From: a bacterium
Lineage (GTDB): Bacteria; UBA8248
Reading direction: 5' to 3'
DNA: 64,000 nt
NCBI GenBank assembly: GCA_963692865.2
Contig: OY843592.1
Coordinates: forward strand, 1,773,690-1,837,689
Below the pieces are notes generated by a model. The model did no database searches, was not told the origin of the DNA, and worked only from the letters and a program-made list of their open reading frames with translations. Of the stretch, positions 37,358-58,363 are shown in pieces. The stretch's first letter is position 1; every line of letters starts with the position of its first letter. The translations under genes and the position numbers were made by a program.

Positions 37358-38461
37358 ATGGGAGATCATCGAATAAGGGATTTCCATCCTTTTCAGGATA
37401 TACAAATGGGCATTCAGAGAAGAGCCTGGGATTCTTACAGACGCTATTCGGAAAACATTTTCGACGCCATCGGCGGTACGCCTCTCGTGCGTTTGAACAA
37501 GATAGGGGCGGAAGTGGAGCCCGAGGTCTACGTGAAGCTCGAGTGGTACTCGCCCTCGGGGAGCCTGAAGGATCGCATCTACTACAACATGATCCTGAAC
37601 GCGGAGGAACGCGGTGACCTAAGCACCGGCATGACGGTGCTCGAATGCTCCACCGGCAACGCAGGCATCGCATGCGCGTTCGTATCCGCGGTGAAGGGTT
37701 ATTCCTGCGTCGTCGTCATGCCCGAGGGTATGAGCGATGAGCGCAAAAAACTCATGCGCGCCTACGGGGCCGATTTGGTGTTTACGCCGGGTGGGGAGAG
37801 CGACGTCGATCTCGCGCTCGAAAAACTCGAAGAAATCCGCGCGGCTTCGCCGGAAAAATACTGGGTTCCCGCCCAGTTCGACAACCTGGACAACAACGAG
37901 GCGCACTACCTCACGACCGGCCCTGAGATTTTCGAGCAGTTGGACGGGCGCGTCGACGCCGTCGTGGCGTCGCAGGGAACGGGCGGCTGGGTGAGCGGCG
38001 TGGGGAAATTTCTGCGCGAGGACAACCCGGACGTGAAGCTCTACGCCGTGGAGCCTCAGGAATGCCCCCTCCTGAGCGAGCGGGGCTGGGGGCCGCACGG
38101 CATCGAGGGCATCGGGGACGGTTTCGTGCCCAAGGCGCTCGACCTCTCCTTGCTTACGGGCATCGTGACGACGACGACGGATGAATCGGTGGAAATGGCG
38201 CAGCGCCTGGCGCGCGAGGAGGGGATTTTCTGCGGCATCTCCTCGGGCTGCAACGTGGCGGCCGCCCTGAAGCTGGCCACCAGGCACCCCGAACTGCAAA
38301 ACATCGTCACGAACATCAACGACACGGGACAGCGCTATTTCACCACCGCTTTGTGCGGAGAGGAAAAACACGTCGAGATTCCCGAGCGTGAGCATCACGT
38401 GGACCCATACAGTGCGGCGCAACTCGATCGATATTCGAGTGAATGGGAAATCATCACCTAG
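37358..38461 (+). CDS. PLP-dependent cysteine synthase/CBS-family enzyme
   Basis: ..GGTPLVRLNK.. and ..SPSGSLKDR.. (PLP lysine) match the fold-type II beta-synthase family. The start is uncertain, with 37406 as an alternative. Confidence 0.75.
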   Translation: MGDHRIRDFHPFQDIQMGIQRRAWDSYRRYSENIFDAIGGTPLVRLNKIGAEVEPEVYVKLEWYSPSGSLKDRIYYNMILNAEERGDLSTGMTVLECSTGNAGIACAFVSAVKGYSCVVVMPEGMSDERKKLMRAYGADLVFTPGGESDVDLALEKLEEIRAASPEKYWVPAQFDNLDNNEAHYLTTGPEIFEQLDGRVDAVVASQGTGGWVSGVGKFLREDNPDVKLYAVEPQECPLLSERGWGPHGIEGIGDGFVPKALDLSLLTGIVTTTTDESVEMAQRLAREEGIFCGISSGCNVAAALKLATRHPELQNIVTNINDTGQRYFTTALCGEEKHVEIPEREHHVDPYSAAQLDRYSSEWEIIT

Positions 38462-38482: not shown

Positions 38483-39349
38483 ATGGTTTATGCCCAGATT
38501 CTGATTAACAGCATTCTCTTGGGGGGTATCTACGCCTGCATCGCGGTCGGTTTCTCGCTCGTCTGGGGCGTGATGAACATCCTGAACATTCTGCACGGCA
38601 CGTTCTTGATGCTGGGCGGCTACGTTACGTTCTGGATGTTCAAACTCTACGGCGTGGACCCGTTCTTGTCCCTTCCGCTCTCCGCCGTCTCCATGTTCTG
38701 CGCGGGCTACGCGGTGCAGCGCGGGCTGATCAACAAAATCGTACGCGCGCCCATGTTCATGTCCCTGATTCTCACCTTCGGCCTTCAGTTGCTCGTCGTG
38801 AGGTTGGCGATATATTTCTTCACCGGCGATTTCAGGTCGGTTCAGCCCTCCTATGCGGGTTTTTCCATTCCTTTCATGGGTCTTTCCATACCCTTCGTCC
38901 GTATTTCGATATTCGTGCTGGGTGTTCTTCTTACGAGCATTCTCTTCTGGTTTATGGGGCGTACACGCACGGGCCGGGCCATACGCGCGACGCGGATGGA
39001 TTTGGACTCCGCCCAGTTGATGGGCGTCGACATCGGCAGAATCTACGCCATCACGTATGGACTCGGCGCGGCCGCCGCGGCCACTTCGGGTTCCCTCGTG
39101 AGCGTGGGTTTCGCCATATCGCCGGTGAGCGATGTGGAGTTCCTCTCGAAATCCTTCATCATCTGCACCATCGGGGGCCTGGGGAACATCACGGGTGCGC
39201 TTGCGGGGGGGCTGATCCTGGGCCTCGCCGAGAATTTCGGCGCCCTTTATCTCGGCCCCGGTCTGCAGAATGCCATCGGCTACGTGCTCTTGATTCTGGT
39301 GCTCTTCATCAAGCCGTCGGGCCTGCTGGGCAGAAAGGGTTTCGAATAG
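38483..39349 (+). CDS. livH: branched-chain amino acid ABC transporter permease (LivH-type)
   Basis: 288 aa, multi-TM, first gene of a LivHMGF-plus-binding-protein operon. Confidence 0.8.
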   Translation: MVYAQILINSILLGGIYACIAVGFSLVWGVMNILNILHGTFLMLGGYVTFWMFKLYGVDPFLSLPLSAVSMFCAGYAVQRGLINKIVRAPMFMSLILTFGLQLLVVRLAIYFFTGDFRSVQPSYAGFSIPFMGLSIPFVRISIFVLGVLLTSILFWFMGRTRTGRAIRATRMDLDSAQLMGVDIGRIYAITYGLGAAAAATSGSLVSVGFAISPVSDVEFLSKSFIICTIGGLGNITGALAGGLILGLAENFGALYLGPGLQNAIGYVLLILVLFIKPSGLLGRKGFE

Positions 39350-39350
39350 C

Positions 39351-40334
39351 ATGTTCAGGCCCTGGTCCCACATTCAATGGTTCGGCATGGGAGCGGGCGT
39401 GCTCGCCCTCATTCTCCTGCCCTCGTTCGTGGAAAACGACGAGATCAGGAAGTGGATGGACATCCTGATGGTGGCCATTCTGGCGATAAGCTGGAATTTC
39501 ATCGGCGGATTGACGGGTTATCCCTCCTTCGCGTCGGCCGCCTTTTTCGGGCTGGGGGCCTACACGACGGCCATCCTCATGAACGCAGGCTTCAATTTCT
39601 TCATCACGCTGGGGATCGGCGCGTGCTTCGGCGCTCTCGTGGCGCTTGCCCTGGGCGTTCCCATATTGAGACTGAGGGGCCACTACTTCGCGATCGCCAC
39701 CTTTGGCGTGGCGGAATTCTTCCGCGAACTCGCGGATAACCTGCGCATCACCGGCGGGGGAGACGGGATCAACCTTCCACAGATAACGGGTGGCCCGGAT
39801 TACTTCACGCGCTTTTTCTACTTCTCCATGCTCGGGGTGGCCGTGCTCGCGGTCTTGACGCAGTACTTCGTCACGCGCCATCGACTGGGCTATGGCCTCG
39901 TCGCCATCCGCGAGAACGAGGACGCGGCGGCCATGACGGGCGTGGATACGACGAAATACAAAATCATCGCCTTCGTGCTCTCTTCCATTTTCCCCGCTAT
40001 GGGAGGCGGCGTATACGCCTACCGCGCCGCGTTTCTGGAGCCCATTGATGTTTTCGACGTCTTGTTCTCCATCAAGGCGATTGTGATGTCGATGCTTGGC
40101 GGGGTGGGTACGGTGATGGGCCCGCTTGTGGGCGCGTTGATGATGGAATACCTGTCGGATTACCTCTGGGGGGCGTTCACGGAATTTCACAGCGCGTTTT
40201 TGGGAATCATCATCGTGCTGGTCGTCTTGTTCCTGCCGCGCGGCTTGATGGCCGTCTCCCAGGAGGTGAAAAGCCGTGGATGGGGGTCTTTGGGAGTAAT
40301 TCTCAAGAGCAACATACAAAGGTTCAAGGTGTGA
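39351..40334 (+). CDS. livM: branched-chain amino acid ABC transporter permease (LivM-type)
   Basis: 327 aa, multi-TM. It starts 2 nt after the livH stop. Confidence 0.8.
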   Translation: MFRPWSHIQWFGMGAGVLALILLPSFVENDEIRKWMDILMVAILAISWNFIGGLTGYPSFASAAFFGLGAYTTAILMNAGFNFFITLGIGACFGALVALALGVPILRLRGHYFAIATFGVAEFFRELADNLRITGGGDGINLPQITGGPDYFTRFFYFSMLGVAVLAVLTQYFVTRHRLGYGLVAIRENEDAAAMTGVDTTKYKIIAFVLSSIFPAMGGGVYAYRAAFLEPIDVFDVLFSIKAIVMSMLGGVGTVMGPLVGALMMEYLSDYLWGAFTEFHSAFLGIIIVLVVLFLPRGLMAVSQEVKSRGWGSLGVILKSNIQRFKV

Positions 40335-41098
40335 GCGAAACTCTTTTGGAAGGCAAGAGCGTCACGAAGCGCTTCGGTGGACTCACTGCCGTTTCAGCGG
40401 TGGATTTCACCGTGCGCAAGGGGGAGATTCTCGGCGTCATCGGTCCCAACGGCGCGGGGAAGACGACGCTGCTCAATTGCATCACGGGCCTCGACCCGGC
40501 GAACGAGGGCGAGATTCTCTTTCGCGGAGAGCGCATCGAAACCTTGAAACCACACTCGATCACGCGAAAGGGAATCGCCCGGACGTTTCAGATCGTCCAG
40601 CCTTTCGCGGGCCTTGCGGTACGCGAGAACGTCGTGATGGGCGCGCTGTTCGGCTCCCGGAAATCGAAAAAGGAAGTGAAGCTCGCCCAGGAACTCGCGG
40701 ATGACATGCTGGCGTTCGTGGGGTTGAGCGATAAGGCCGCGCAACTCGCCTCCCAGCTTACGCTCGCCGAGAGAAAACGTCTGGAATTCGCCAAATCCCT
40801 GGCCACGGAGCCGGAAGTGCTGCTTCTCGACGAGGTGAACGCCGGTCTCAACACGACGGAAATCGAGAACGCCATTTCCCTCATCCACAAGGTGAGAGAG
40901 CAGGGCGTGACCATCCTGGTGATCGAGCATTTGATGAAGGTGATCACGGACCTCTCGGATCGCGTCCTCGTCCTGCATCACGGGGAGAAGATAGCGGAAG
41001 GCTTGCCGCGCGAGGTGACGAGCGATGAGCAGGTTATCAAGGCCTATCTGGGCGAAAAATACGTTGCGATGATGAAAAAGCTGGATGAGGAGTCCTAG
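40331..41098 (+). CDS. livG: ABC transporter ATP-binding protein (LivG-type)
   Basis: GTG at 40331 overlaps the livM stop. It has Walker A GPNGAGKTT, signature LTLAERKRLEFAKSL and Walker B LLLDE. Confidence 0.8.
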   Translation: MSETLLEGKSVTKRFGGLTAVSAVDFTVRKGEILGVIGPNGAGKTTLLNCITGLDPANEGEILFRGERIETLKPHSITRKGIARTFQIVQPFAGLAVRENVVMGALFGSRKSKKEVKLAQELADDMLAFVGLSDKAAQLASQLTLAERKRLEFAKSLATEPEVLLLDEVNAGLNTTEIENAISLIHKVREQGVTILVIEHLMKVITDLSDRVLVLHHGEKIAEGLPREVTSDEQVIKAYLGEKYVAMMKKLDEES

Positions 41099-41840
41099 CG
41101 TGGCGGCGCATGAATCTCAAAACGGAACGAGCCTCCTGGAGGTGAGCGGCCTGGCGGGCGGGTATGATGACGTTCAGGTTCTGTGGGGGATCGATCTGCG
41201 CGTGGACGAAGGTGAGATAGTCGCCATCGTCGGCAGCAACGGCGTCGGCAAGTCCACGTTTCTGCGAATGCTCTCGGGCGTGCGCCCTCACCGGGCGGGA
41301 ACAATGACGCTCGACGGTGAGTCAATCGAGGGAATGGCGCCGGAGGGCATCGTCGCCAAAGGGATTTCCCATGTGCCCGAGGGCCGCAGGCTCTTCGCAG
41401 CGATGAGCGTGGAGGAGAATCTCCTGATGGGCGCTTATGCGCGGAAAATGGCCGATCAGGAACTGGCGGCGGATTTGGAGAGGGTGTACGGGTTTTTCCC
41501 GCGGCTGGCGGAGCGGAAATCCCAGCTTGCAGGGAGCATGTCCGGCGGTGAGCAGCAGATGTGCGCGATCGCCCGGGGGTTGATGGCGCGCCCCAGGCTG
41601 CTCCTGATCGACGAACTCTCCCTGGGCCTTGCGCCCAGGCTGGTGGAGGAATTGTGTGGTTTCGTCCGGCAGATAAACGAGGAGGGCGTCGCCATCATCC
41701 TGGTCGAGCAGGATGTGCTCACCGCGTTCGAGCTCGCGAGGCGGGCCTATGTTTTCGAAACCGGGCGCGTAACGATCTCCGGCACTTCGGATGAGCTTCT
41801 GGCGAATCCGCAGGTGAAGAAGGCGTATCTGGGCATGTAG
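41085..41840 (+). CDS. livF: ABC transporter ATP-binding protein (LivF-type)
   Basis: Walker A GSNGVGKST, signature MSGGEQQMCAI and Walker B LLLIDE. Confidence 0.8.
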   Translation: MRSPSVAAHESQNGTSLLEVSGLAGGYDDVQVLWGIDLRVDEGEIVAIVGSNGVGKSTFLRMLSGVRPHRAGTMTLDGESIEGMAPEGIVAKGISHVPEGRRLFAAMSVEENLLMGAYARKMADQELAADLERVYGFFPRLAERKSQLAGSMSGGEQQMCAIARGLMARPRLLLIDELSLGLAPRLVEELCGFVRQINEEGVAIILVEQDVLTAFELARRAYVFETGRVTISGTSDELLANPQVKKAYLGM

Positions 41841-41937
41841 CCCGTTTTCATATACTCTGTCTGGAATCAACTTGTATGAATATTGTGTGAGAACCGAAGA
41901 CGGAAGAGGTAGCACTCAACCATTGAGGAGGCAGGTC

Positions 41938-43146
41938 ATGAGAAGGCGTAAATTGTTGTTTCTCATCGCAGCAATCTTGTTTGTCTCTTTCGGCGTGACG
42001 GGTCTGCAGGGGCTGGACGGCGCCCAGGCGGCTGAGATCAAGTTCGGCGCCGCCTTGCCGCTCACTGGGCCGCTCGCCACCGAGGGAAAAAAGCAGCAGG
42101 CGGGCTATGAAATCTGGCGCGAGCGCGTCAACAAGGCGGGCGGCATCAACGTGGGCGGCAAGAAGATGAAGGTGAAGATCGTCTACTACGACTACGAGAG
42201 CAAGACGCCGACGGCCACCAAGCTCGCCGAGCGGCTCATTACCAAGGAAAAGGTAGACCTCCTCCTTGGCCCGTTCGGTAGCGGAGCGACGAAATCCGTC
42301 GCCGCTATCACGGAGCGTTATCAGGTGCCCCTCATCGCGCCCGTGGCGAGTTCGGAGCCGATTTTCGACCAAGGCTACAAATACCTATTCGGCCTTCTGG
42401 CGCCGAACGCGTATTTGCCGAACAACTTCCTGACGCTCTTGAAAGAGCAAAAGCCGAAGCCCAAGACCATCGCGTTCGTGACGCGCAACGACTTCTTCCC
42501 GCGCGCCGTCACGAGGATGATTAGAGCAGCGGCGAAAAAACAAGGATTCACGGACGTCTACTACGCCGAGTTTCCGAAGGATTCGAAGGATATGTCCACC
42601 TGGCTCACGATCGTGAAGGGCAAGAATCCAGACGTTCTCATGGTGGCCGGCTATCTTCCCGACACCCTACTCGCCACAAAGCAGGCGAACGAGTTGGGCG
42701 TGAAGCCCAAAATCCTGTTCACCATGGTGGGTCCGGTCTACGCGCAGTTCACGGAATCGCTCGGCGCCACGGCCAACAACATCCTGACAGCCGCATGGTG
42801 GGGCGAGGCGCTTGAATACAAGGGCGACTTCATCGGCTCGGCGCGGGATTTCGGAAAGATCTGGCGCGCCAAGTTCAAGCAGGAGCCGGACTACGTCGCC
42901 GCGGCGTCGACGGCCGCGGGCATCGTCGCCCAGAAGGCCATCGAGGCGGCGGGCACGCTGGACAAGAAGAAGGTTCGCGACGCCATTGCGAACACTAATT
43001 TGAAAACTTTCTTCGGCCCCGTGAAGTTCGACAAGCTCAACATGAACGCGGCCAGCGCCATCGTTTTGTTCCAGGTGCAGGACGGAAAACGCAAGACGGT
43101 GGGTCCGAAGAGCGTGGCGAACGCGAAATTTAGGTTTCCAAGATAG
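41938..43146 (+). CDS. ABC transporter substrate-binding protein (LivK/Peripla_BP_6-type)
   Basis: In-frame ATG at 41938 gives the signal peptide MRRRKLLFLIAAILFVSFGVTG. ..IKFGAALPLTGPLATEGK.. is typical of the family. Confidence 0.8.
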   Translation: MRRRKLLFLIAAILFVSFGVTGLQGLDGAQAAEIKFGAALPLTGPLATEGKKQQAGYEIWRERVNKAGGINVGGKKMKVKIVYYDYESKTPTATKLAERLITKEKVDLLLGPFGSGATKSVAAITERYQVPLIAPVASSEPIFDQGYKYLFGLLAPNAYLPNNFLTLLKEQKPKPKTIAFVTRNDFFPRAVTRMIRAAAKKQGFTDVYYAEFPKDSKDMSTWLTIVKGKNPDVLMVAGYLPDTLLATKQANELGVKPKILFTMVGPVYAQFTESLGATANNILTAAWWGEALEYKGDFIGSARDFGKIWRAKFKQEPDYVAAASTAAGIVAQKAIEAAGTLDKKKVRDAIANTNLKTFFGPVKFDKLNMNAASAIVLFQVQDGKRKTVGPKSVANAKFRFPR

Positions 43147-43217
43147 TTTTTAAGCCAGTTTCAGGAACGTCGCCGAGATTGAGGCAGCGTTCTTGAGCCA
43201 GGCTTTGTGGGGGGTTC

Positions 43218-44015
43218 ATGCCGACGATCCGCCAGTTGGCCGATGATGAGGTGTCCGAGGCGGCGCGAGAACTCGTAGAACGCGTCAAGACGCGCGAGAA
43301 GCGCGTATTCGGCATCGATACGCTCTCGAACATCTGGCGGTCGATGACCCACCATCCCGAATACATGGAGGCGAGTTGGGAGCGTTCGCGCGCCACCATG
43401 CAGCGCGGGGACGCGCCGCCTCTGGTGAAGGAGATGGTCGCCTCGGCGGTTTCCATCGTCAATGCGTGTGGATACTGAATCGACTCTCACATCGCCGCGG
43501 TCATGCGGATGGGGGTCGATGAGGCGGGTATCACGGAGTTGATCGGCTTGACGGATCATGTTTCGGGAATGAACAAGGTCGCCTTCGGTCTTTTGTTGGA
43601 GGATGAGGATACGCCGTCTCTTCTGCCTTATCCGGAAGAAGATAAGATCAACCCGGTCGTACGGGACCTGATGGGTGAGGTGGCGGAGGTGGAATCAGCG
43701 CGTCTGGGTGAAGACGGCGTTCCGCGCTACTGGCGCTGTCTGGCGCGAAACCGCCATTATTTCGAATCCACGTGGAACAAGCACAAGCTCATGCTCGATG
43801 GAGGCGTTCTCGAAAAACATGCCAAAGCGGCGGTTGGTTTCGGCGTGAGCGTCACGAACGGCTCCAGGTATTTCATACGGTATTTCCATGCTTATCTGGT
43901 GAATCTGGGCTGGGACCCTGGGCGAATCCTCGAAATTCTCGGGGTGGTGGATCACTACAACAGCTTCAACGCCCTGGCGACGGGAATGCAGATCGAATCG
44001 GACATCAGGCCATGA
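43218..44015 (+). CDS. AhpD/carboxymuconolactone-decarboxylase-family protein, probable selenoprotein (UGA at 43476-43478 read as Sec)
   Basis: The track ORFs 43218-43478 and 43503-44015 are in the same frame. They are separated only by one TGA and then open codons. Read through, the sequence is ..VSIVNACGY[U]IDSHIAAV.. This matches the CMD motif N-x-C-x-Y-C-x-x-x-H with UGA at the second Cys. A stem-loop starts right after the UGA. Confidence 0.65.
43479..43520 (+). promoter_or_regulatory. SECIS-like stem-loop immediately 3' of the in-frame UGA
   Basis: The outer stem pairs ATCGAC (43479-43484) with GTCGAT (43515-43520). The inner helix is CAT..CCGC / GCGG..ATG with a 2-nt bulge. The apical loop is GGTCAT (43499-43504). 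The pairing was done by eye. Confidence 0.5.
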
Positions 44016-44090
44016 TCCGAGAAGCGCTTGGGATGAATGCCGGGTGGTCGCGGCATATGACGAAGCGAGTTTTTTAGAATAGAGCTGAAG

Positions 44091-44945
44091 ATGGAATTTT
44101 TACGCGCTGGATCGGTGGATGAAGCGTTGGCGGCTGCTCGCGATGGCGCCGCATTCGTCGCGGGCGGTACGAACCTAGTGCCGGACGTGCTTTTTGAGCG
44201 CAAGAAAATAGCGCGCGCGGTGGACATCAGCCGTCTCGATGAGCTTCGTTTCATCGAGGAGGCGGGCGGAAAAATCAGAATCGGTGCGCTGGCGAATGTC
44301 ACGGATTTGCTGGAATCTGAACTGATACGCACGGCCGCCTCGCCTTTGTACGAGAGCACTCTCGAATTCGCGGGTCCTCTGGTGAGAAACCGCGCGAGCG
44401 TGGCGGGCAACCTCATGGATGCCTCGCCCGCCGCCGATTTGGCGCCTCCCCTGCTGGCGCAGGATGCCGTCGTCGAATTGGCCTCGGCGGAGGGCGAACG
44501 CAACTTACCGCTTTCGGAATTTTTCTTGGATTACAGAAAAACGGCCGCGCGTACGGAAGAACTCATGACGGCCATTGTCCTTGAACCGCTGGGGACGAGC
44601 GATCGTTGCGCTTATTATAAATTACAACTCAGGCGCGCGATGGCCATCGCCGTCGTGGGCGTTGCGGTCGTTCTTCGGATGGAAGGAGACGTTTGTGCGG
44701 AGGCCGCCGTCAGCCTGGGGGCGGTGGCCGCGGTGCCGTATCGCGCGCACGCGGCGGAGGCGTGTCTGCGTGGCAAGGAAGTTGGGGAAGCTGAAATCGA
44801 GGCGGCGGCTGAGGCAGCGAAAGATAGTGCCCGTCCTATTGACGATGTGCGGGCGAGTGCGGCGTACCGGAAGAAAATGTGCGGCGTGCTGGTCCGCCGT
44901 TTGCTCAGGAAAGCGCTGGGAATGCCGCAACCCGCGGTTGTGTGA
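44091..44945 (+). CDS. xanthine-dehydrogenase-family FAD-binding subunit (CoxM-like)
   Basis: 284 aa. ..FVAGGTNLVPD.. and ..RNRASVAGNL.. are FAD_binding_5 motifs. Confidence 0.8.
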   Translation: MEFLRAGSVDEALAAARDGAAFVAGGTNLVPDVLFERKKIARAVDISRLDELRFIEEAGGKIRIGALANVTDLLESELIRTAASPLYESTLEFAGPLVRNRASVAGNLMDASPAADLAPPLLAQDAVVELASAEGERNLPLSEFFLDYRKTAARTEELMTAIVLEPLGTSDRCAYYKLQLRRAMAIAVVGVAVVLRMEGDVCAEAAVSLGAVAAVPYRAHAAEACLRGKEVGEAEIEAAAEAAKDSARPIDDVRASAAYRKKMCGVLVRRLLRKALGMPQPAVV

Positions 44946-44960
44946 TGAATAATTTGGGTC

Positions 44961-45458
44961 ATGGGTGAGCAGACAATGAGTGCTTATGCAATCAAATTGC
45001 GCGTGAACGGAAAGGACGAAACCCTCGCCGTGCGGGGGGATGAGACGCTCCTGCGCGCTCTCAGGCGGATTGGCTACGTCGAGGTGAAACTCAGTTGCGA
45101 GGGGGGCGATTGCGGCGCGTGCGCTATTTTGCTAGACGGCGTGGCCGTGAACGCCTGCCTCATGTTCGCCGCGCAGGCGGACGGCTCGGAGATCACCACC
45201 GTGCGCGGTATCGGAACGGAAGACGACCTCCACCCGGTACAGGAACAGCTCATCGAAAAAGGAGGCGTACAGTGCGGTTTCTGCACGCCGGGAATCGTCG
45301 TATCGGCGAAGGCGCTTCTGGATGAGAACGCTGCGCCCACGCGCGAGGACATACAACGCGGCCTCGCCGGAAACCTTTGCCGCTGCACGGGCTATAAGAA
45401 GATTTTCGAGGCTGTATCGGCGGCAGCCCGGCAGATGAAGGAAGGAGGCGACTCATGA
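44961..45458 (+). CDS. (2Fe-2S)-binding subunit (CoxS-like)
   Basis: Cys clusters C-x4-C-G-x-C..C and ..QCGFCTPG..C.C match the two [2Fe-2S] motifs. The start may be Met at 44976. Confidence 0.85.
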   Translation: MGEQTMSAYAIKLRVNGKDETLAVRGDETLLRALRRIGYVEVKLSCEGGDCGACAILLDGVAVNACLMFAAQADGSEITTVRGIGTEDDLHPVQEQLIEKGGVQCGFCTPGIVVSAKALLDENAAPTREDIQRGLAGNLCRCTGYKKIFEAVSAAARQMKEGGDS

Positions 45459-47725
45459 GCACGCGCATCGTCGGCCGGCCTCATCCCATCATCGACGCCG
45501 TGGAGAAAGTCTCGGGCGCCACGGTTTTCATCAACGATCTGGAGCTTCCGGGCGCGCTGACTGGCATGGCGCTCAGGAGCCCCCATCCCCACGCCAGGAT
45601 TTTGAACCTCGACGCCTCGGACGCGGAGCGCTTGGCCGGCGTCGCCGTCGTTTTGTCGAAAAACAACACGCCGAACGCTCCTTTCGGCATCAACCACAAG
45701 GATGAGGCCGCGTTCTGCCGCGAGAAAGTCCGCTACCTGGGGGATGAAGTCGCCGCCGTGGCGGCCGTGGACGAGGAGACGGCGCGCGAGGCGCTCTCGC
45801 TCATTCGCGTGGAATATGAAGTTCTGCCCACGGTTGCGGATCCTTTCGCGGCGCAGGAGCCGGATGCGCCTCTCGTCCACGATTCCGTCGCCGGCAACAT
45901 CGCGAACGAGTTTCACATCAAACGCGGCGAAATAGACGAGGCGTTTGATAAGGCGGATGCGGTGTTCGCGGACGAGTTCCACACCCATCTCGCGCACCAA
46001 GCCTATATCGAGCCCACTGGCTGTGCGGCTCAGTGGCATCCCGACGGGAAAATCTCCGTCTGGGGCTGTCTGCAGTCGGTGTTTTTGATTCGCACCTTCA
46101 TGCTCGCGCCCGTCATGGGCAAGTCTCCCGATGATTTCCGCGTGACGCAGACCAAGCCGGGCGGCGCCTTCGGCGGCAAGCTGGACGTGAAGGCGGCTCT
46201 CATGGCGGCGATGCTGAGCCGGGCGGCGGAAAAGCCGGTCAGATTCATGATGAGCCTCGAAGAAGACCTGATCGCCATGCGCCCCAGGATGCCGGTGCAC
46301 ATCTCCCTGGAGTCCGCCTGGAAGCGCGACGGAACGCTCGCGGGCAAGCGCGTCAGGATCGTGGCGGAAAACGGCGCCTACAGTTCGCTGTCGCCCGCCA
46401 TCATGAGCTCCATCGCGCTCAGGACGGACAATCTCTACAAGACGCCCGCCGCCGAGATTCAGGGAAAACTCGCCTACACGAACATCATCCCCTCGGGCCA
46501 GATGCGGGGGTTCGGCAACGTGCAGGCGACGTACGCCTGGGAGAGCCATCTCGACAACGTGGCCGACGGCCTGGGCCTGGATCCGGCCGATCTTCGCCTC
46601 AGGAACTACACCGAAAAAGGCGACGTCTCGCTCCACGGCTGGAAAATCGCGAGTTGCGCCGTGGCCGACGCCACGAGGTACGTTGTCAGGGAGATGGACT
46701 GGAAAGCCAAGCGCGCCAGGGGAGGAAAAGGCCGCGGCGTGGGTCTCGCCAGTTGCATCCATGTTTCCGGGAATAAAGGTTTTTCGGTGGAGCTTGGCCC
46801 CGACGGCACCGACCCATCTAGCGGCGTGGTTCGGGTGAATGAGGAGGGCAGGGTCGAAATCTGGTCGGGCGAGTCGGATCTGGGCCAGGGCGCCACCAGC
46901 GTGATGGCCTACATCGCCTCCGAGGTCATGGGGATTCCCGTGGATCGGTTCAAGGTGCCGCCCACCGATACGGGCTACATGCCCTTCGGGATGGGCGCGT
47001 TCGCGAGCCGCATCACCCTGATCGGCGGCAACGCCGTCAAGCTCGCCGCCGAGGACGCGCGGAGAAACCTCTTGGACGCCGCGGTGGAGTTCATGGAAAT
47101 TCCGGCGGATGAACTCGAAATCGTGGAGGGCGATGTCCGGGCGAAGGCGCTCCCCGAGCGGAAGATGGCGGTGGGCGAGGTCGTCAGGCGGGCCGGAAGC
47201 GTGATCGAGGGCGAGGGGAAGTGGCTGGCAGGCGGAGACGTGCTCGACAAGGAGAAATACGGGAATCCCTCGACGACTTATTCCTTCAGCACCCACGGCG
47301 CCGAGGTGGAAGTGGACATGGAGACGGGCGTCGTCGATGTTCTGCGGATTTGCTGCGGCCACGATCCGGGCCGGGTGATCAACAGGCTGGGCGCGGAGGG
47401 CCAGGTCGAGGGCGGCGCGGTGCAGGGCATGAGCTACGCGATGATGGAGGGCCTGGCGCCGCTGGAGGGGCGTCTGCGCGGCAGGAATTTCCACGACTAC
47501 CTCATCGCCACCTCGATGGACGCCCCGCCCATAGAGCACGACTTCTTCGAGTCGATGGACCCTTACGGCCCCTACGGCGCGAAGGGGCTGGCCGAAGTGG
47601 CCATAAATCCGATCACGGCGGCGATTTGCAACGCCGTCTATCACGCGACGGGCGGCGCGCGAATCCGCGCCCTGCCCGTCACCCCCGAGCGCGTACTCGA
47701 AGCCATCGAAGAAGCAAGGAAGTAA
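45455..47725 (+). CDS. xanthine-dehydrogenase-family molybdopterin-binding subunit
   Basis: 756 aa with aldehyde oxidase/XDH a/b hammerhead and MoCo-binding patterns (..GGAFGGK.., ..GQG..). It overlaps the FeS subunit stop by 4 nt. The antisense 871-aa ORF is rejected. Confidence 0.85.
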   Translation: MSTRIVGRPHPIIDAVEKVSGATVFINDLELPGALTGMALRSPHPHARILNLDASDAERLAGVAVVLSKNNTPNAPFGINHKDEAAFCREKVRYLGDEVAAVAAVDEETAREALSLIRVEYEVLPTVADPFAAQEPDAPLVHDSVAGNIANEFHIKRGEIDEAFDKADAVFADEFHTHLAHQAYIEPTGCAAQWHPDGKISVWGCLQSVFLIRTFMLAPVMGKSPDDFRVTQTKPGGAFGGKLDVKAALMAAMLSRAAEKPVRFMMSLEEDLIAMRPRMPVHISLESAWKRDGTLAGKRVRIVAENGAYSSLSPAIMSSIALRTDNLYKTPAAEIQGKLAYTNIIPSGQMRGFGNVQATYAWESHLDNVADGLGLDPADLRLRNYTEKGDVSLHGWKIASCAVADATRYVVREMDWKAKRARGGKGRGVGLASCIHVSGNKGFSVELGPDGTDPSSGVVRVNEEGRVEIWSGESDLGQGATSVMAYIASEVMGIPVDRFKVPPTDTGYMPFGMGAFASRITLIGGNAVKLAAEDARRNLLDAAVEFMEIPADELEIVEGDVRAKALPERKMAVGEVVRRAGSVIEGEGKWLAGGDVLDKEKYGNPSTTYSFSTHGAEVEVDMETGVVDVLRICCGHDPGRVINRLGAEGQVEGGAVQGMSYAMMEGLAPLEGRLRGRNFHDYLIATSMDAPPIEHDFFESMDPYGPYGAKGLAEVAINPITAAICNAVYHATGGARIRALPVTPERVLEAIEEARK

Positions 47726-47773
47726 CGTACTGCCCGGTTTCCCGGAAATTCGCTCGAATCCCCAGGTGATGTC

Positions 47774-49414
47774 ATGCAAAACCTCTCCTGCGACGTTTTG
47801 ATCCTCGGCGGCGGCCCCGCCGCCATGACGGCCGCCGTCGCCGCCATGGAGAGCGGCGCGGACGCGCTTCTGGTCTGCAAGCAGTCCCCTGGGAACTCGG
47901 GCAACATCGTCATGGCCCGGGCGGGGCATTCGGCGAATTTCGCGCCCGACGACAGCGCGGCGCTGTTCCTGGAGGACACCCTGGTGGGCGGCGCGTACTT
48001 GAACCACCCCGACGTCGCCCGCGCCATGTGCGCGGATTCCGCCGCGCGGATTCGGGACCTCTACGACTGGGGCATCCCGTTCATCACGCGCGAGGACGGC
48101 TCGTTCGACTTACACCCCCAGGGCGGCCACGCGCGGGACCGCGGGGTCTACCCGGTCCGGAACTGGGGCGTGGAGGTGGCGAGGCCGCTGCGCAAAAAGC
48201 TCGACGCCGACGGCGCCCGCATCCTCGAGAACGTCATGGCCGTCGATCTGCTCGTGGAGGACGGCGTCTGCCGGGGCGCGGTCGGCTTCCACACGAGGAG
48301 CGGGGAGATTTACGCCGTATCCGCCCCCGCCACCATCCTGGCCACGGGCGGGGCGGGGCAGATATACGCCGAGAACACGAACGCGGGCGGCATCACGGGA
48401 GACGCCTTCGGCATGGCGCTCAGGGCCGGCCTGGCGCTCTCGGACATGGAGTTCGTCCAGTTCTACCCGGCCGTCATCAAGCGCCCGGAGAGCAACATGG
48501 TCGTCGCGCCGACGCTGTTCCCGCTCGGGGCGCGCTTCCTGAACCGCGACGGCGAGGACGTCCTGCGCGGCGTGCCCGGCGGCGGCGCGGCCACGCGGGA
48601 CCTGATGGCGCGGGCGGTATATCTCGAACTCATGCGCGGCGGCGGGGTGGACGGCGCCGTGCGGATGGATTTATCGGGCATCCCGATGGCCGATCTGGAG
48701 CATTTCGCGCCCGACAACCTCAAACTCTTCGCCAGAAGGGGCGTTTCGCCCCACGGGAGCGATATCTACGTCGCGCCGAAGGCGCACTTCTTCATGGGCG
48801 GGGTTCCCATCGACGGGGCGGGCGCGACGGCCATGCCGGGCCTCTACGCGGCGGGGGAGGCGAGCGCGGGCGCGCACGGGGCGAACCGCCTCTCGAACAA
48901 CGCCTTCACCGAGGCGCACGCGCTGGGCCGGCGGGCGGCGGAGGCGGCGAGCGAATGCGCGAGGAGCGCCGGCGGCGCGGCGGCGGGTCCCGCCCTCGCG
49001 CGGCGTCACGCGGACGCCCTCGCGGCGCGGGCGGGCCGGACGGGCCGCGCCGTGGAGGCGGCCCGCGGGATCAAGCGCATCTGCTGGGAGAACGCGGGCG
49101 TCGTGCGCGAAGAAGCCTTGCTGGAGGAGGCGAGGGGCGAACTCGCCGAGGTCGGGCGGGATCTCGCCGCCTGCGGGGGGAGCGAACCCGCGCGGCTGGT
49201 GGAGGCCGTGGAGGCCGAGAACATGTGCCTGAGCGCGCGGGCGGTGGTGGAGGCCGCGCTGGCGCGGACGGAGAGCCGCGGCGCGCATTTTCGGACCGAT
49301 TTTCCCGAGACCGACGAGGCGCGCTGGCGGGTGAACGTTTTCGTCAAAAAAGAGGCGGACGCCTTTTCGGCGCGATCCCGCCCAATAGGCTCCATTTTGT
49401 GGGAAAACGACTGA
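47774..49414 (+). CDS. FAD-binding flavoprotein (succinate dehydrogenase/fumarate reductase / L-aspartate oxidase-like)
   Basis: Dinucleotide fold DVLILGGGPAAMTAAVAA. ..GEASAGAHGANRLSNNAFTEA.. is typical of the SdhA/FrdA/NadB family. Confidence 0.75.
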   Translation: MQNLSCDVLILGGGPAAMTAAVAAMESGADALLVCKQSPGNSGNIVMARAGHSANFAPDDSAALFLEDTLVGGAYLNHPDVARAMCADSAARIRDLYDWGIPFITREDGSFDLHPQGGHARDRGVYPVRNWGVEVARPLRKKLDADGARILENVMAVDLLVEDGVCRGAVGFHTRSGEIYAVSAPATILATGGAGQIYAENTNAGGITGDAFGMALRAGLALSDMEFVQFYPAVIKRPESNMVVAPTLFPLGARFLNRDGEDVLRGVPGGGAATRDLMARAVYLELMRGGGVDGAVRMDLSGIPMADLEHFAPDNLKLFARRGVSPHGSDIYVAPKAHFFMGGVPIDGAGATAMPGLYAAGEASAGAHGANRLSNNAFTEAHALGRRAAEAASECARSAGGAAAGPALARRHADALAARAGRTGRAVEAARGIKRICWENAGVVREEALLEEARGELAEVGRDLAACGGSEPARLVEAVEAENMCLSARAVVEAALARTESRGAHFRTDFPETDEARWRVNVFVKKEADAFSARSRPIGSILWEND

Positions 49415-50285: not shown

Positions 50286-50294
50286 TTGTATCGA

Positions 50295-51767
50295 CCTTCT
50301 CTAATCGGGTAGGGCAAGTCAAGTTCCTCTCCCCTGGTTCTGTCAGACCTGTTCCGCCTTTGGCTGCAGATGACGCTCCATGGGGGTCTCGCTTCTCTTC
50401 GTGATCGACTCCCGAGCCGGGGGCCGTCAACAGGATGGGATCGGAGAACGAAGTGGAACAATCTTTCCTGCGCCCTCGCATCGTCACCGACGCAGCGGGG
50501 CTAGGCCGACAGCGTACTCACTTCGTCCCTCGTCCCCACGGGAGCATCCCCCGCCGAGGCGGAAGCTACAGGGTTTGTCTGTGGTCCTCCTTCTTCAGTG
50601 TCTCGACCTCAGGCAGCCGAAGCATCCGCGCCGTCGCGCTTCCAGCGGAACTCACTGCCATCCATCCACATGCGGTGCATGATGACGCCGAGCCGGCGGG
50701 CGAGCGCAACCTTCGCGCGCGACTTGCCGCGACGCTTCGCCACACCCATCGCCCAGGCTTTCAGCCATGACCACCGCGTCGTGCGCCCGAGCAAGACGTT
50801 GGCGGCTTCGTAGAGCGCCGCGCGCATCATCGCGTCGCCGCATTTGGAGATGCTTCCCGTGCGGTCGACCTCTCCGGATTGCCATTTGCGAGGCACAAGC
50901 CCGAAGTGCGCGCCCACCGAGCGCGAGCGCGCAAAACGCGATGGCACGTCGACGCTCGCCCGGAAGGTGAGCGCCGTCACCGGACCCACGCCGGGAACCG
51001 TCATCAGGCGCCGGCAGACCGGATCGGCTCGCGCCGCCTCCAGCATCATCCTGTGCAGCCGGACGTATTCCGCCAGCAGCGCAGAGCGAGCCCGCAGCAT
51101 CGGCGCCACCAGGCGCGCCAACTCCGGGCGCTCCGCGACCAGACACCCTACACGCGCCTCCAAACCGCGACGGGTGACCTTGCCCATCTTCAGCCCGAAG
51201 TTGCGCAGCGTGCCCCGGATGTGGGCCTCGGCGTCGCACAACTGCTTCAGCATGAACCTGCGGTTGGCGAGGAGCATGCGTTTTTCCTGGCTCGACACCG
51301 TCTTCACGTGCACCGGGCGAATCAGGTTCGCGCGAACCAACTGGGCGATGCCGCGCGCGTCGTCGCGGTCGCTCTTGTTCACCGTCGCCGAGAGCACCGC
51401 CTTCAGTTGCCGCGTCTCGGCGCAAACCACCGGGAACCCGGCCTCGGCCAGACCGTCATGGAGCCACTGTGACAGCGGCCCCGCCTCCAGGCAGATGCGC
51501 GTTACGCCGAAGGCCAGTCCGGTGAAGAACGCCACGAGGGCCGCGGGTTCGCTCGCGACCTTCGCCTCCCGGACGATCCCGCCCTCCGCGTCCACCACGC
51601 ACACACTCGTCCACTCCAACGACACGTCGAGTCCTGCAAAGTAGTTCATGACTGCTCCTCCTGCGGGCGCGTAGAGACCGGACCATCCCGGCCTCGCCTC
51701 GAATCATAAGGCAGAGGAACATCCGCCACACGCGGTAGTTCGCAGACCAACCCGATTACCCCATCTT
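50295..51767 (-). mobile_element. IS110-family insertion sequence, copy 2 (identical to 6486-7958)
   Basis: Exact identity over 1473 bp, including all nested ORFs in the track. Same orientation as copy 1. Confidence 0.9.
50609..51649 (-). CDS. IS110 family transposase (copy 2)
   Basis: The 346-aa translation is identical to that of 6800-7840. Confidence 0.9.
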   Translation of the reverse strand: MNYFAGLDVSLEWTSVCVVDAEGGIVREAKVASEPAALVAFFTGLAFGVTRICLEAGPLSQWLHDGLAEAGFPVVCAETRQLKAVLSATVNKSDRDDARGIAQLVRANLIRPVHVKTVSSQEKRMLLANRRFMLKQLCDAEAHIRGTLRNFGLKMGKVTRRGLEARVGCLVAERPELARLVAPMLRARSALLAEYVRLHRMMLEAARADPVCRRLMTVPGVGPVTALTFRASVDVPSRFARSRSVGAHFGLVPRKWQSGEVDRTGSISKCGDAMMRAALYEAANVLLGRTTRWSWLKAWAMGVAKRRGKSRAKVALARRLGVIMHRMWMDGSEFRWKRDGADASAA

Positions 51768-51893
51768 CCCTTTCGGTTCTTTTTTCTCTCAAGAATTGTT
51801 TCAATAATAAAACGTTTTGTCAATAAATCCGGCAATCCGGCGCCGCCGGCCATTCTTCATCATTCCCTTTTCAACAACCCCGGATGCGGCGGC

Positions 51894-55475: not shown

Positions 55476-55668
55476 GCGGGCGGGCCGCGTCGTCATTCGA
55501 GGGGGTTCGTGGGGGCAATCCCTCCCCGGGACCGCCCCGCCGTTCGCGAACGGCCCTGCCCGGCGGAGAAACGGGCGCTCCCTTGCAGGGGTCGCAGGGG
55601 CCGCATGATATGTCGGACGCATATGTCCGACCTGCGGGTGAGGCGATGGCTTTGTCGAGGGGTCGTCC

Positions 55669-58360: not shown

Positions 58361-58363
58361 GCC

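What the first reader, a model, noticed from the sequence alone, without database searches (positions are those of the whole stretch)
43218..44015. In-frame UGA at the CxxC position of an AhpD/CMD-family gene plus a SECIS-like hairpin: probable selenoprotein split by ORF calling
ORFs 43218-43478 and 43503-44015 share one frame. The only interruption is TGA at 43476-43478.

- Read through, the sequence is ..SIVNACGY-U-IDSHIAAV.. The carboxymuconolactone-decarboxylase/AhpD redox motif is N-x-C-x-Y-C-x-x-x-H, so the UGA falls exactly on the second catalytic Cys (a CxxU motif).
- Directly after the UGA, ATCGAC (43479-43484) pairs with GTCGAT (43515-43520). These enclose CAT(CG)CCGC-GGTCAT-GCGG-ATG. 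The result is a ~42-nt stem-loop with a GGUC-containing apical loop, like bacterial SECIS elements.
- AhpD-like selenoproteins are a known but rarely annotated family.
- This gene sits immediately upstream of a molybdenum-hydroxylase operon (44091-47725).
- The downstream half carries a second, Cys-less CMD repeat (..VTNGSRYFIRYFHAY..).
Basis: partly seen in the sequence, partly recalled or inferred. Interest (0 to 1): 0.7.

Follow-up and report, generated by a model that had tools for sequence, protein, structure and literature searches.

The report
Split AhpD-like selenoprotein gene
The two small ORFs are one 265-codon gene for an AhpD/CMD-type redox protein whose catalytic cysteine is replaced by selenocysteine (UGA), a well-known kind of selenoprotein that gene callers split everywhere we looked.

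Summary

- **One gene.** ORFs 43218-43478 and 43503-44015 form one reading frame. It is interrupted only by TGA at 43476-43478.
- **Sec codon.** The TGA aligns with the second Cys of the AhpD C-x-x-C-x-x-x-H motif. It aligns with Cys in PDB 2ouw and M. tuberculosis AhpD, and in about 255-aa two-domain homologues.
- **Conservation.** The same TGA is present in 45/45 complete loci from 5 phylum-level groups. It is also present in 115/115 metagenome matches to a pattern that allowed TGA, TGC or TGT.
- **Translated gap.** The 8 codons between the TGA and the next ATG are conserved as protein (IDSH[IV]AAV, including the catalytic His).
- **SECIS.** The hairpin right after the UGA meets the published bacterial SECIS constraints in 43/44 sequences. 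Its apical stem codons, Ala GCC and Arg CGG, are the only fixed ones among 38 conserved degenerate codons.
- **Architecture.** The protein is a tandem AhpD-core duplication. The second repeat has lost Cys, Sec and His.

CxxU AhpD-like/CMD selenoproteins have been known since 2005, so this is a new, unannotated member (subfamily) of a known kind.

Not testable here: selA/B/C/D in the source genome, and the biochemical substrate.

The parts
43218..44015 (+). Complete selenoprotein coding sequence: 265 codons including Sec87, then its own TGA stop at 44013-44015. Public gene calls on homologous loci split it into an 86-aa and a 170-aa ORF.
   Evidence: One frame with a single internal TGA. Pfam CMD and TIGR00778 are above their cutoffs on the fused sequence. 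tblastn matches span residues 1-265 in 40+ genomes.
43476..43478 (+). Sec codon (UGA, residue 87). It occupies the second position of the C84-x-x-U87 redox motif.
   Evidence: TGA at this codon in 45/45 loci and in 115/115 metagenome matches to a pattern that allowed TGA/TGC/TGT. It aligns with Cys in 2ouw and in M. tuberculosis AhpD Cys133, and in two-domain Cys homologues.
43467..43469 (+). Cys84 codon (TGT), the predicted resolving Cys of the CxxU motif.
   Evidence: Invariant Cys (TGT or TGC) in 45/45 sequences. It aligns with AhpD Cys130 through the ungapped 70-119 / 116-165 match.
43488..43490 (+). His91 codon, the catalytic His of C-x-x-U-x-x-x-H. It lies inside the 24-nt 'gap' between the two called ORFs.
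   Evidence: Invariant His with both CAC and CAT in use. It aligns with AhpD His137.
43479..43520 (+). SECIS-type hairpin immediately 3' of the UGA. Lower stem 43479-43489 / 43510-43520; apical stem 43495-43499 / 43504-43508; loop GUCA 43500-43503, 21 nt after the UGA.
   Evidence: MFE fold. It meets the published bSECIS constraints in 43/44 homologues. The apical stem codons GCC (Ala93) and CGG (Arg97) are the only fixed ones among 38 conserved 4/6-fold degenerate codons. Only 2 of 64 possible Ala-Ala-Val codon combinations occur in 115 metagenome sequences.
43311..43601 (+). First AhpD-core repeat (residues 32-128). It carries Glu72, Cys84, Sec87 and His91, and it spans the UGA.
   Evidence: Pfam CMD best stretch is 47-122. 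2ouw aligns to residues 1-115, E = 1.6e-14. Internal repeat alignment.
43707..43997 (+). Second, degenerate AhpD-core repeat (residues 164-260). Ser216, Phe219 and Phe223 replace Cys, Sec and His. It is followed by the family-specific C-terminal motif GVVDHYNSFN.LA.GMQIESDIRP.
   Evidence: 28% identity over 97 aa without gaps to repeat 1, E = 1e-16. The C-terminal motif is invariant across 43-90% identical homologues.
38483..43146 (+). Context: Leu/Ile/Val-type (HAAT) ABC transporter genes. These are two permeases, two ATPases and a Peripla_BP_6 binding protein.
   Evidence: Pfam. The same transporter type flanks the gene in many unrelated lineages.
44091..49414 (+). Context: xanthine-oxidase-family Mo-hydroxylase (FAD, 2Fe-2S and Mo subunits, 44091-47725). 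It is followed by an FAD_binding_2/fumarate-reductase-like flavoprotein (47774-49414).
   Evidence: Pfam. This order is conserved in about 25 close relatives but only sporadically elsewhere.

Best explanation
Coordinates 43218-44015 are a single gene for a 265-residue selenoprotein of the AhpD/carboxymuconolactone-decarboxylase (CMD) fold.

**Translation (inferred from sequence conservation).**
- The ribosome reaches UGA-87.
- SelB carrying Sec-tRNA(Sec) is held on the apical stem-loop (CCGCG-GUCA-UGCGG) of the hairpin that begins right after the UGA.
- Selenocysteine is inserted instead of terminating, and translation continues to the gene's own UGA stop at 44013-44015.

**Protein chemistry (inferred by homology with M. 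tuberculosis AhpD; not tested).**
- Sec87 sits at the position of the nucleophilic Cys133 of AhpD.
- Cys84 corresponds to the resolving Cys130.
- His91 and Glu72 correspond to the His137/Glu118 proton relay.
- The most likely chemistry is therefore a selenol/thiol oxidoreductase cycle. Sec attacks a peroxide, sulfenate or disulfide substrate. A Cys84-Sec87 selenenylsulfide forms. It is then re-reduced by a thiol or lipoyl donor.

**Other features.**
- The second AhpD-core repeat has lost the catalytic residues and probably serves as a structural pseudo-dimer partner.
- The gene is probably co-transcribed with a HAAT-type ABC transporter and a Mo-hydroxylase/flavoprotein catabolic cluster. The physiological substrate is unknown.
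For: **Shown directly**
- Single in-frame TGA.
- TGA, never TAA/TAG/TGC/TGT, at this codon in 45/45 loci from Nitrospinota-labelled MAGs, Rhodospirillales, Methylomirabilota/Rokubacteria, Acidimicrobiaceae and Limnocylindria.
- TGA in a 32%-identical homologue.
- TGA in 115/115 metagenome hits to a TGH pattern.
- The 8 'gap' codons are conserved as amino acids while their synonymous sites vary: Ser90 uses 4 codons, and Asp89 and His91 use 2 each.
- No start codon consistently follows the TGA, and the ATG at 43503 has no purine-rich Shine-Dalgarno-like stretch in the 20 nt upstream.
- All 120 best database hits are 147-204 aa pieces; the 11 C-terminal pieces aligned start at the same Met. No full-length entry exists in this subfamily.

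**Homology**
- Pfam CMD and TIGR00778 are above their cutoffs.
- 2ouw aligns across the UGA with Cys at that position, E = 1.6e-14.
- The ungapped alignment to AhpD 1gu9 (70-119 with 116-165) places E72, C84, U87 and H91 on E118, C130, C133 and H137.
- About 255-aa two-domain homologues carry NGCxYC[IV]xxH.
- One of these folds confidently (pLDDT 92.8) as a two-domain all-alpha AhpD/CMD structure. Its CxxC sits at a helix N-terminus.
- The internal repeat alignment runs through the UGA.

**SECIS**
- The published constraints are met in 43/44 sequences (PMC13188914).
- Synonymous sites of the apical stem are uniquely frozen.

**Lineage**
- NCBI-labelled Nitrospinota MAGs (GTDB UBA8248) carry 48-54 selenoprotein genes (PMC13326102).
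- SelA and SelB co-occur in the majority of the sponge-symbiont bins, of various phyla (PMC5649159).
Against: - No tRNA-Sec, selA, selB or selD could be shown for the source genome.
- Base-pair covariation in the hairpin is not above shuffled controls. The region encodes an almost invariant peptide, so the RNA evidence rests on frozen synonymous sites rather than compensatory changes.
- No Rfam SECIS family matches.
- Whether the window's organism belongs to the selenoprotein-rich UBA8248 lineage was not tested.
- The catalytic mechanism and substrate are inferred by homology only. Gene neighbourhood differs between lineages.
Confidence: 0.9

Rival explanations
1. The TGA is a genuine stop. 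The locus encodes two polypeptides, an 86-aa N-terminal piece and a 170-aa piece re-initiated at ATG 43503, which assemble into a split AhpD-like protein.
For: - Gene callers produce exactly these two ORFs in every public record.
- Met96 is nearly invariant.
Against: - The catalytic His91 and the peptide IDSH[IV]AAV lie in the supposed untranslated gap, yet they are conserved as protein with varying synonymous sites.
- The stop is always TGA in 160 independent sequences.
- Without residue 87 the active site would lack its nucleophile.
- The helix following the CxxC would be cut in two.
- No Shine-Dalgarno-like sequence precedes 43503.
- Distant homologues with Cys are contiguous.
Confidence: 0.04
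2. The UGA is read through without selenium, for example by near-cognate Cys-, Trp- or Arg-tRNA or a suppressor. The full-length protein is made but is not a selenoprotein.
For: - The Sec machinery was not demonstrated for this genome.
- From general knowledge, some read-through of Sec-UGA codons with Cys or Trp is known under selenium limitation.
Against: - A conserved SECIS-type hairpin with frozen synonymous sites has no role in simple read-through.
- The gene's own terminator and four of the ten neighbouring genes use TGA as a stop, so UGA is not reassigned.
- If Cys were the intended residue, TGC or TGT would be expected at least once in 160 sequences.
Confidence: 0.04
3. The locus is a pseudogene or contains a sequencing or assembly error at 43476-43478.
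For: - A single nonsense codon in an otherwise intact gene is what a recent inactivation would look like.
- One degenerate extra copy exists in a Methylomirabilota MAG (L045).
Against: - The same TGA occurs in 45 genomes and 115 metagenome contigs from independent projects and phyla.
- Both halves are under purifying selection.
Confidence: 0.01

Closest known systems
AhpD-like and CMD-domain CxxU selenoproteins of marine and environmental bacteria (Zhang, Fomenko & Gladyshev 2005, PMC1088965; Zhang & Gladyshev 2008, PMC2398784; listed in PMC13188914 and BSepDB, PMC13326102)
   Same: - Same superfamily (PF02627 / AhpD core).
- Same CxxU motif, with Sec at the second position.
- SECIS hairpin directly after the UGA.
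- Cys-containing homologues exist.
- Usually missed by annotation.
   Different: - This subfamily is a 265-aa tandem duplication with a Cys-less second repeat and a distinctive GMQIESDIRP C-terminus.
- It scores below the cutoffs of TIGR01926, NF041238, NF041047, NF041537 and NF053654.
- No Cys form was found at more than 32% identity, and none among the 115 metagenome matches to the Cys-permitting motif pattern.
- Whether BSepDB already lists it could not be checked.
Mycobacterium tuberculosis AhpD (PDB 1knc, 1gu9)
   Same: - All-alpha AhpD fold built from two related halves.
- An ungapped sequence match puts Glu72, Cys84, Sec87 and His91 on Glu118, Cys130, Cys133 and His137.
- The model of the Cys homologue matches 1gu9 with TM 0.74-0.77 normalised to the target.
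   Different: - Only a distant relative: TIGR00777 scores 26.6 bits against a cutoff of 192.
- The active motif is in the first repeat here, not the second.
- Sec replaces Cys.
- No ahpC gene is nearby.
PDB 2ouw (AhpD core protein, Rhodospirillum rubrum) and 2q0t (tandem CMD protein, Burkholderia xenovorans)
   Same: - 2ouw is the best sequence match (residues 1-115, E = 1.6e-14), with N-S-C-S-Y-C-x-x-S-H aligned to N-A-C-G-Y-U-I-D-S-H.
- 2q0t is the best fold match to the two-domain Cys homologue (TM 0.68-0.70).
   Different: - 2ouw has a single domain and contains Cys.
- 2q0t is about 17% identical to the modelled Cys homologue P0141.
- Both are structural-genomics entries without a known function.
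E. coli fdhF-type bacterial SECIS and the consensus bSECIS model
   Same: - The hairpin starts right after the UGA.
- Small apical loop with G followed by U (loop GUCA closed by a G-U pair; GGUCAU if that pair is open).
- 20-21 nt between the UGA and the loop.
- Stable stem (model from PMC13188914).
   Different: - The sequence is unrelated to the Rfam SECIS families.
- The loop is CGUGAU in most non-Nitrospinota members.
- SelB binding is untested.
Bmp8 debrominase (PDB 6ohj/6ohi), a CMD-fold enzyme from the PDB entry title
   Same: The model of the Cys homologue matches at fold level with TM 0.75-0.78 normalised to the target. From general knowledge, Bmp8 uses a thiol-based mechanism.
   Different: No detectable sequence similarity to the window protein. 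There is no evidence for halogenated substrates here. This is a lead only.

Membership tests
Bacterial selenoprotein gene (Sec-UGA decoding) | In-frame UGA conserved among orthologues, with coding sequence conserved on both sides | tested here: met
   TGA in 45/45 loci, in L053 at 32% identity, and in 115/115 metagenome matches to a TGH pattern. The 8 codons after the UGA are conserved as protein.
Bacterial selenoprotein gene (Sec-UGA decoding) | Cys aligned with the UGA in homologues | tested here: met
   2ouw and AhpD 1gu9. Two-domain homologues P0141, P0147, P0154, P0165, P0168, P0194 and P0243 carry 'NGCxYC'.
Bacterial selenoprotein gene (Sec-UGA decoding) | bSECIS model: 3-9 nt apical loop, 4-16 bp upper stem, G in the first two loop positions, 16-37 nt from the UGA, MFE <= -7.5 kcal/mol (PMC13188914) | tested here: met
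   Window: loop GUCA, 5-bp upper stem, 21 nt spacing, -20.8 kcal/mol for the 45 nt after the UGA. 43/44 homologues pass. Synonymous sites of the apical stem are frozen. Covariation is not significant.
Bacterial selenoprotein gene (Sec-UGA decoding) | selA, selB, selC (tRNA-Sec) and selD present in the same genome | not testable with these tools
   The window holds only tRNA-Ala, and the genome is not available. Indirect support: UBA8248 'Nitrospinota' MAGs have 48-54 selenoprotein genes (PMC13326102), and SelA/SelB are common in sponge symbionts (PMC5649159).
Bacterial selenoprotein gene (Sec-UGA decoding) | Selenium incorporated into the protein | not testable with these tools
   Needs 75Se labelling or mass spectrometry.
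AhpD/CMD superfamily (Pfam PF02627; NCBIfam TIGR00778 AhpD core domain) | Profile score above the curated cutoff | tested here: met
   PF02627 scores 58.1 bits (cutoff 23), with 2 stretches. TIGR00778 scores 41.9 bits (cutoff 27.8).
AhpD/CMD superfamily (Pfam PF02627; NCBIfam TIGR00778 AhpD core domain) | C-x-x-C-x-x-x-H motif with an upstream Glu | tested here: met
   E72, C84, U87 and H91 align without gaps to AhpD 118, 130, 133 and 137. All four are invariant in 45 sequences.
AhpD/CMD superfamily (Pfam PF02627; NCBIfam TIGR00778 AhpD core domain) | All-alpha AhpD fold | tested here: inconclusive
The 28%-identical Cys homologue P0141 folds at pLDDT 92.8 and matches 2q0t, 1gu9, 6k40 and 2ouw. 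The support is therefore indirect.
TIGR01926 peroxidase-related enzyme (the model given for the 'AhpD-like protein' selenoprotein family in PMC13188914) | Score at or above the 81.8-bit cutoff | tested here: not met
   40.7 bits for the window protein and 56.1 bits for the L003 orthologue.
Named AhpD-related (seleno)protein models NF041238, NF041047, NF041537, NF053654, NF045649 | Score at or above each model's cutoff | tested here: not met
   Scores of 12.8-30.8 bits against cutoffs of 110-510, and only partial matches.
Authentic AhpD (TIGR00777) and PcaC 4-carboxymuconolactone decarboxylase (TIGR02425) | Equivalog/subfamily score above the cutoff | tested here: not met
   TIGR00777 scores 26.6 bits against 191.95. 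TIGR02425 gives no hit for the window protein and 14.1 bits against 155.7 for L003.

The most novel reading that the evidence does not exclude
This may be a distinct, obligately selenocysteine-dependent tandem-AhpD subfamily: 160/160 sequences have TGA, and no Cys form was found above 32% identity. Its real job may not be general peroxide defence. It may instead perform a dedicated selenol-dependent step in a catabolic or uptake pathway.

It recurs next to HAAT ABC transporters, Mo-hydroxylases, and UbiD, amidohydrolase and Rieske enzymes. One candidate role is reductive dehalogenation in the manner of Bmp8 or the deiodinases. Another is lipoyl-protein-linked reduction: one homologue has a GcvH gene immediately downstream.
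Probability: 0.1. Interest if true: 0.6.

Novelty: new member of a known kind. Interest (0 to 1): 0.33.

Why it matters
Practically, it is an annotation fix. In all public records examined the gene is called as two small ORFs. Where a name is recorded, it is 'hypothetical protein', as in the one NCBI entry seen, P0012. No NCBIfam selenoprotein model catches it.

The comparative set gives a clean training case for SECIS and selenoprotein finders. It holds 160 sequences from at least 5 phylum-level groups, an invariant TGA, and a SECIS whose apical stem freezes synonymous sites.

Biologically, it adds a tandem-AhpD subfamily that seems never to revert to Cys. That is unusual among thiol-oxidoreductase selenoproteins. 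It also points to a selenium requirement in catabolic gene clusters of the relatives' lineages: MAGs labelled Nitrospinota, Methylomirabilota and others, some of them seemingly sponge-derived (inferred from isolate names). It does not change what is known about how Sec is decoded.

Tried and rejected
- **Rfam.** Gathering thresholds on the whole window and E-value mode on 43440-43580 gave no SECIS or tRNA-Sec family, only a chance mir-246 hit at E = 2.2.
- **Base-pair covariation.** On 43 sequences it is not distinguishable from shuffles, and the apical stem never varies. I replaced this with a synonymous-site test.
- **Fused (U->C) protein.** I used the C-terminal ORF for the exhaustive search and a Cys homologue for the model instead.
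- **Exact look-up of the window's 170-aa ORF.** It is not on record, so the source contig and organism were not identified.
- **Other selenoprotein genes in the window.** I scanned TGA-joined ORF pairs, then filtered by codon-position GC. Nothing convincing appeared besides this gene.
- **Sec machinery.** No feasible route exists with these tools.
- **Promoter/terminator scan of 42900-44300.** It found nothing informative.
- **Split-gene, pseudogene and code-reassignment readings.** All three were rejected on the comparative evidence given under the rival explanations.
Full report
**1. The observation**

The sequence is as described. ORF 43218-43478 (86 aa) and ORF 43503-44015 (170 aa) are in one frame. 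The only stop between them is TGA at 43476-43478. Read through, the peptide is ..KE72MVASAVSIVNAC84GY-U87-IDSH91IAAVM96RMGVDE...

Folding 43470-43540 gives a hairpin that starts on the base after the UGA:
- The lower stem is 43479-43489 with 43510-43520.
- The apical stem CCGCG/UGCGG is 43495-43499 with 43504-43508.
- The loop GUCA is 43500-43503.
- The MFE is -27 kcal/mol, z = -2.25, and 6 of 200 shuffles fold as well.

On its own the hairpin is only modestly unusual. Its weight comes from conservation (section 4).

**2. One domain spans the stop**

With Cys in place of the stop, the 265-aa product hits two profiles above their cutoffs:
- Pfam CMD (PF02627) scores 58 bits against a cutoff of 23, in two stretches.
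- The NCBIfam AhpD core-domain model TIGR00778 scores 41.9 bits against 27.8.

The best solved relative is 2ouw. It aligns to residues 1-115 (E = 1.6e-14), with its N-S-C-S-Y-C-A-H-S-H over N-A-C-G-Y-U-I-D-S-H.

The match to M. tuberculosis AhpD (1gu9) covers query 70-119 and chain 116-165. Both spans are 50 residues, so the alignment has no gaps. Glu72, Cys84, Sec87 and His91 therefore fall on positions 118, 130, 133 and 137. By my knowledge of the AhpD literature, these are the proton-relay Glu, the resolving Cys, the nucleophilic Cys and the catalytic His. The PDB titles 'H137F mutant' and 'H132Q mutant' are consistent with this numbering.

The protein is an internal duplication. Residues 32-128 and 164-260 align without gaps (28% identity, E = 1e-16). 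In the second repeat, Ser216, Phe219 and Phe223 stand where Cys84, Sec87 and His91 stand in the first. The first repeat is complete only if translation passes the UGA.

**3. Comparative evidence for UGA = Sec**

*Protein database.* A search of 5.8 billion proteins with the fused sequence returned 151 hits.
- The best 120 are all 147-204 aa and cover only about the C-terminal 64% (48-67%) of the query.
- The 11 C-terminal pieces aligned, spanning 43-90% identity, all begin at the same Met96, 'MR[LM]G..'.
- No full-length entry exists.
- The one named NCBI example is 'hypothetical protein' (P0012).

*DNA of homologous loci.* The DNA explains the split.
- In a 89%-identical relative with the same neighbours (L001), an 86-aa ORF ends in an in-frame TGA at the same codon. 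The next ORF begins 24 nt later.
- The same arrangement occurs in a 43%-identical homologue in a different neighbourhood (L003/L004).

*Species-representative genomes.* A scan found 43 loci.
- They come from Nitrospinota-labelled MAGs, Rhodospirillales, Methylomirabilota/Rokubacteria, an Acidimicrobiaceae MAG and a Limnocylindria MAG. Several of the Nitrospinota-labelled isolate names suggest sponge samples; this is my inference from the names.
- Together with the other loci fetched, 45 of 45 complete copies have TGA there. None has TAA, TAG, TGC or TGT.
- The two exceptions are a copy truncated by its contig end (L046) and a degenerate second copy (L045).
- A 32%-identical homologue from a lower-GC organism (L053) again has ..NSCDY-TGA-IDSHVAAVMR...

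*Metagenomes.* I scanned JGI metagenome contigs with a pattern for C-x-Y-[TGA/TGC/TGT]-I-D-S-H-[IV]-A-A-V-M-R. All 115 matches carry TGA.

*The gap is translated.* The eight codons between the TGA and the next ATG are conserved as amino acids while their third positions vary.
- Ser90 uses TCT, TCC, TCG and TCA.
- Asp89 and His91 each use both of their codons.
- So this stretch is translated in this frame, although no start codon consistently follows the TGA.
- The ATG at 43503 has no Shine-Dalgarno-like sequence upstream.

*UGA is still a stop.* The gene's own terminator and four of the ten neighbouring genes end in TGA, so UGA is not reassigned.

*Cys homologues.* An exhaustive HMMER search with the C-terminal ORF gave 127 representatives.
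- Ten are about 250-275-aa proteins in which the match lies in the C-terminal two thirds.
- Aligned with the fused protein, seven of them carry NGCxYC[IV]xxH, with Cys at the UGA position.
- They are only 23-32% identical. Within the closer subfamily no Cys form was seen.
- About 30 further clusters start at the conserved Met and are probably split Sec forms as well. Two of these were verified at the DNA level.

**4. The hairpin as a SECIS**

The published bacterial model requires four things (PMC13188914):
- an apical loop of 3-9 nt on an upper stem of 4-16 bp;
- a G in the first two loop positions;
- 16-37 nt between the UGA and the loop;
- an MFE at or below -7.5 kcal/mol.

The window's element has loop GUCA, a 5-bp upper stem, 21 nt spacing and -20.8 kcal/mol for the 45 nt after the UGA. 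In all, 43 of 44 distinct homologous sequences pass.

Base-pair covariation is not above shuffled controls, because the peptide encoded here is nearly invariant. I therefore asked whether synonymous sites are constrained.
- Among 38 (near-)invariant four- or six-fold degenerate codon columns of the gene, only two have a single codon in all 45 sequences.
- These are Ala93 (GCC) and Arg97 (CGG), exactly the two arms of the apical stem CCGC/GCGG.
- In the 115 metagenome sequences the pattern allowed 64 codon combinations for Ala-Ala-Val. Only two occur: GCC-GCC-GTG and GCC-GCG-GTC.
- G and U at the loop positions (alignment columns 31-32, i.e. 43500-43501) are invariant.

This is strong evidence for selection on the RNA element, as expected for a SelB-binding loop. 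No Rfam SECIS family matches.

**5. Structure**

The tools refuse the fused sequence. The Cys homologue P0141 (257 aa), modelled with nine relatives, folds with mean pLDDT 92.8 and pTM 0.89. It forms twelve helices in two similar halves, and the CxxC sits at the N-terminus of helix 89-101.

Its best PDB matches are:
- the tandem CMD protein 2q0t (TM 0.68-0.70);
- M. tuberculosis AhpD;
- D. radiodurans AhpD;
- the peroxidase-related proteins 2oyo, 2pfx and 3c1l;
- the debrominase Bmp8;
- 2ouw (rmsd 1.8 A over one domain).

A separately initiated 170-aa product would begin near the end of the helix that carries the redox motif.

**6. Context**

In the window the gene lies 71 nt after a Peripla_BP_6 binding-protein gene. 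That gene closes a Leu/Ile/Val-type ABC transporter operon. The Mo-hydroxylase (FAD, 2Fe-2S and Mo subunits) begins 75 nt downstream and is followed by an FAD_binding_2 flavoprotein. No promoter- or terminator-like sites separate them.

This order is kept in about 25 close relatives. Elsewhere the neighbours change. They include fumarase plus acyl-CoA ligase, 2-hydroxyacid dehydrogenases, Amidohydro_2, UbiD, Rieske/VanA, luciferase-like monooxygenase plus nitrilase plus PrpD, and in one case GcvH. The same ABC transporter type recurs in many of these loci.

The association is therefore with uptake and catabolic clusters in general, not specifically with the Mo enzyme.

**7. Mechanism**

Shown: one reading frame, a conserved UGA, Cys in homologues, a conserved SECIS-type element, and an AhpD-type catalytic constellation.

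Inferred:
- SelB-dependent insertion of Sec at codon 87.
- A Sec87/Cys84 selenenylsulfide redox cycle assisted by His91 and Glu72, as in AhpD.
- The second repeat acting as an inactive structural partner.
- The substrate (peroxide, protein sulfenate or disulfide, or a small molecule) and the reductant remain unknown.

**8. What could not be done**

The Sec machinery of the source genome could not be examined. The window contains only tRNA-Ala.

Published surveys give indirect support:
- NCBI-labelled Nitrospinota MAGs of GTDB phylum UBA8248 carry 48-54 selenoprotein genes (PMC13326102).
- SelA and SelB co-occur in most sponge-symbiont bins (PMC5649159).

Whether this window belongs to that lineage was not tested. 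A screen of the window for further TGA-containing genes found none.

**9. Comparison and novelty**

CxxU selenoproteins of the AhpD-like (COG2128/TIGR01926) and CMD (PF02627) families were described in 2005 and found in hundreds of copies in ocean metagenomes (PMC1088965, PMC2398784). Current reviews list several AhpD-related selenoprotein models (PMC13188914).

The window protein passes only the generic domain models. It falls below the cutoffs of every specific one. It is thus a new, unannotated member, arguably a subfamily, of a known kind. Three traits distinguish it:
- the tandem architecture;
- the GMQIESDIRP C-terminus;
- the apparent absence of close Cys forms.

A specialist would not be surprised, so interest is about 0.33.

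Noticed in passing
window 6482-7962 and 50291-51771: Two copies of a 1,481-bp element, 99.9% identical. Each carries a 346-aa ORF on the minus strand (6800-7840 and 50609-51649). It is probably an insertion sequence present twice in the window.
   Followed up: partly
window 53667-53754, 54879-54969, 55539-55639, 56383-56549, 58096-58361, 61415-61813: Dispersed palindromic elements of about 40-90 nt, such as GTAGGTCGGACATATATGTCCGACAT and GGGCCGCATGATATGCGGCCCC. They are clustered in the 53.6-61.8 kb part of the window (whether they lie between genes was not checked) and look REP/MITE-like.
   Followed up: no
window 55717-56031: An array with 21-nt periodicity (repeats of ..TTCGTGGGCCGCCATGGTT..), possibly a heptad-type coding repeat.
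   Followed up: no
L045 4001-4773 (Methylomirabilota MAG JBKPAK010000193.1), 14 kb from the intact copy L032: A second, degenerate copy of the gene. The three codons C-x-Y before the TGA are deleted and the frame breaks later. It looks like a decaying paralogue or an assembly problem.
   Followed up: partly
L053 3129-3512: In a 32%-identical homologue with the TGA conserved, a GcvH (lipoyl carrier protein) gene lies immediately downstream. From general knowledge, M. tuberculosis AhpD is re-reduced through a lipoyl protein, so this hints at a possible electron donor.
   Followed up: no
window 37358-38461: A PLP-dependent enzyme gene (Pfam PALP, 259 bits) lies directly upstream of the ABC transporter operon. 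This fits an amino-acid or organic-acid uptake and catabolism cluster.
   Followed up: no
Public protein records for the family (e.g. P0012, P0016, P0042): Annotation artefacts caused by the Sec codon. P0016 starts directly after the TGA. P0042 is a 204-aa entry combining a BPD_transp_2 (PF02653) permease-like N-terminal part with the C-terminal part of this protein, possibly a chimaeric call. NCBI names the piece 'hypothetical protein'.
   Followed up: partly
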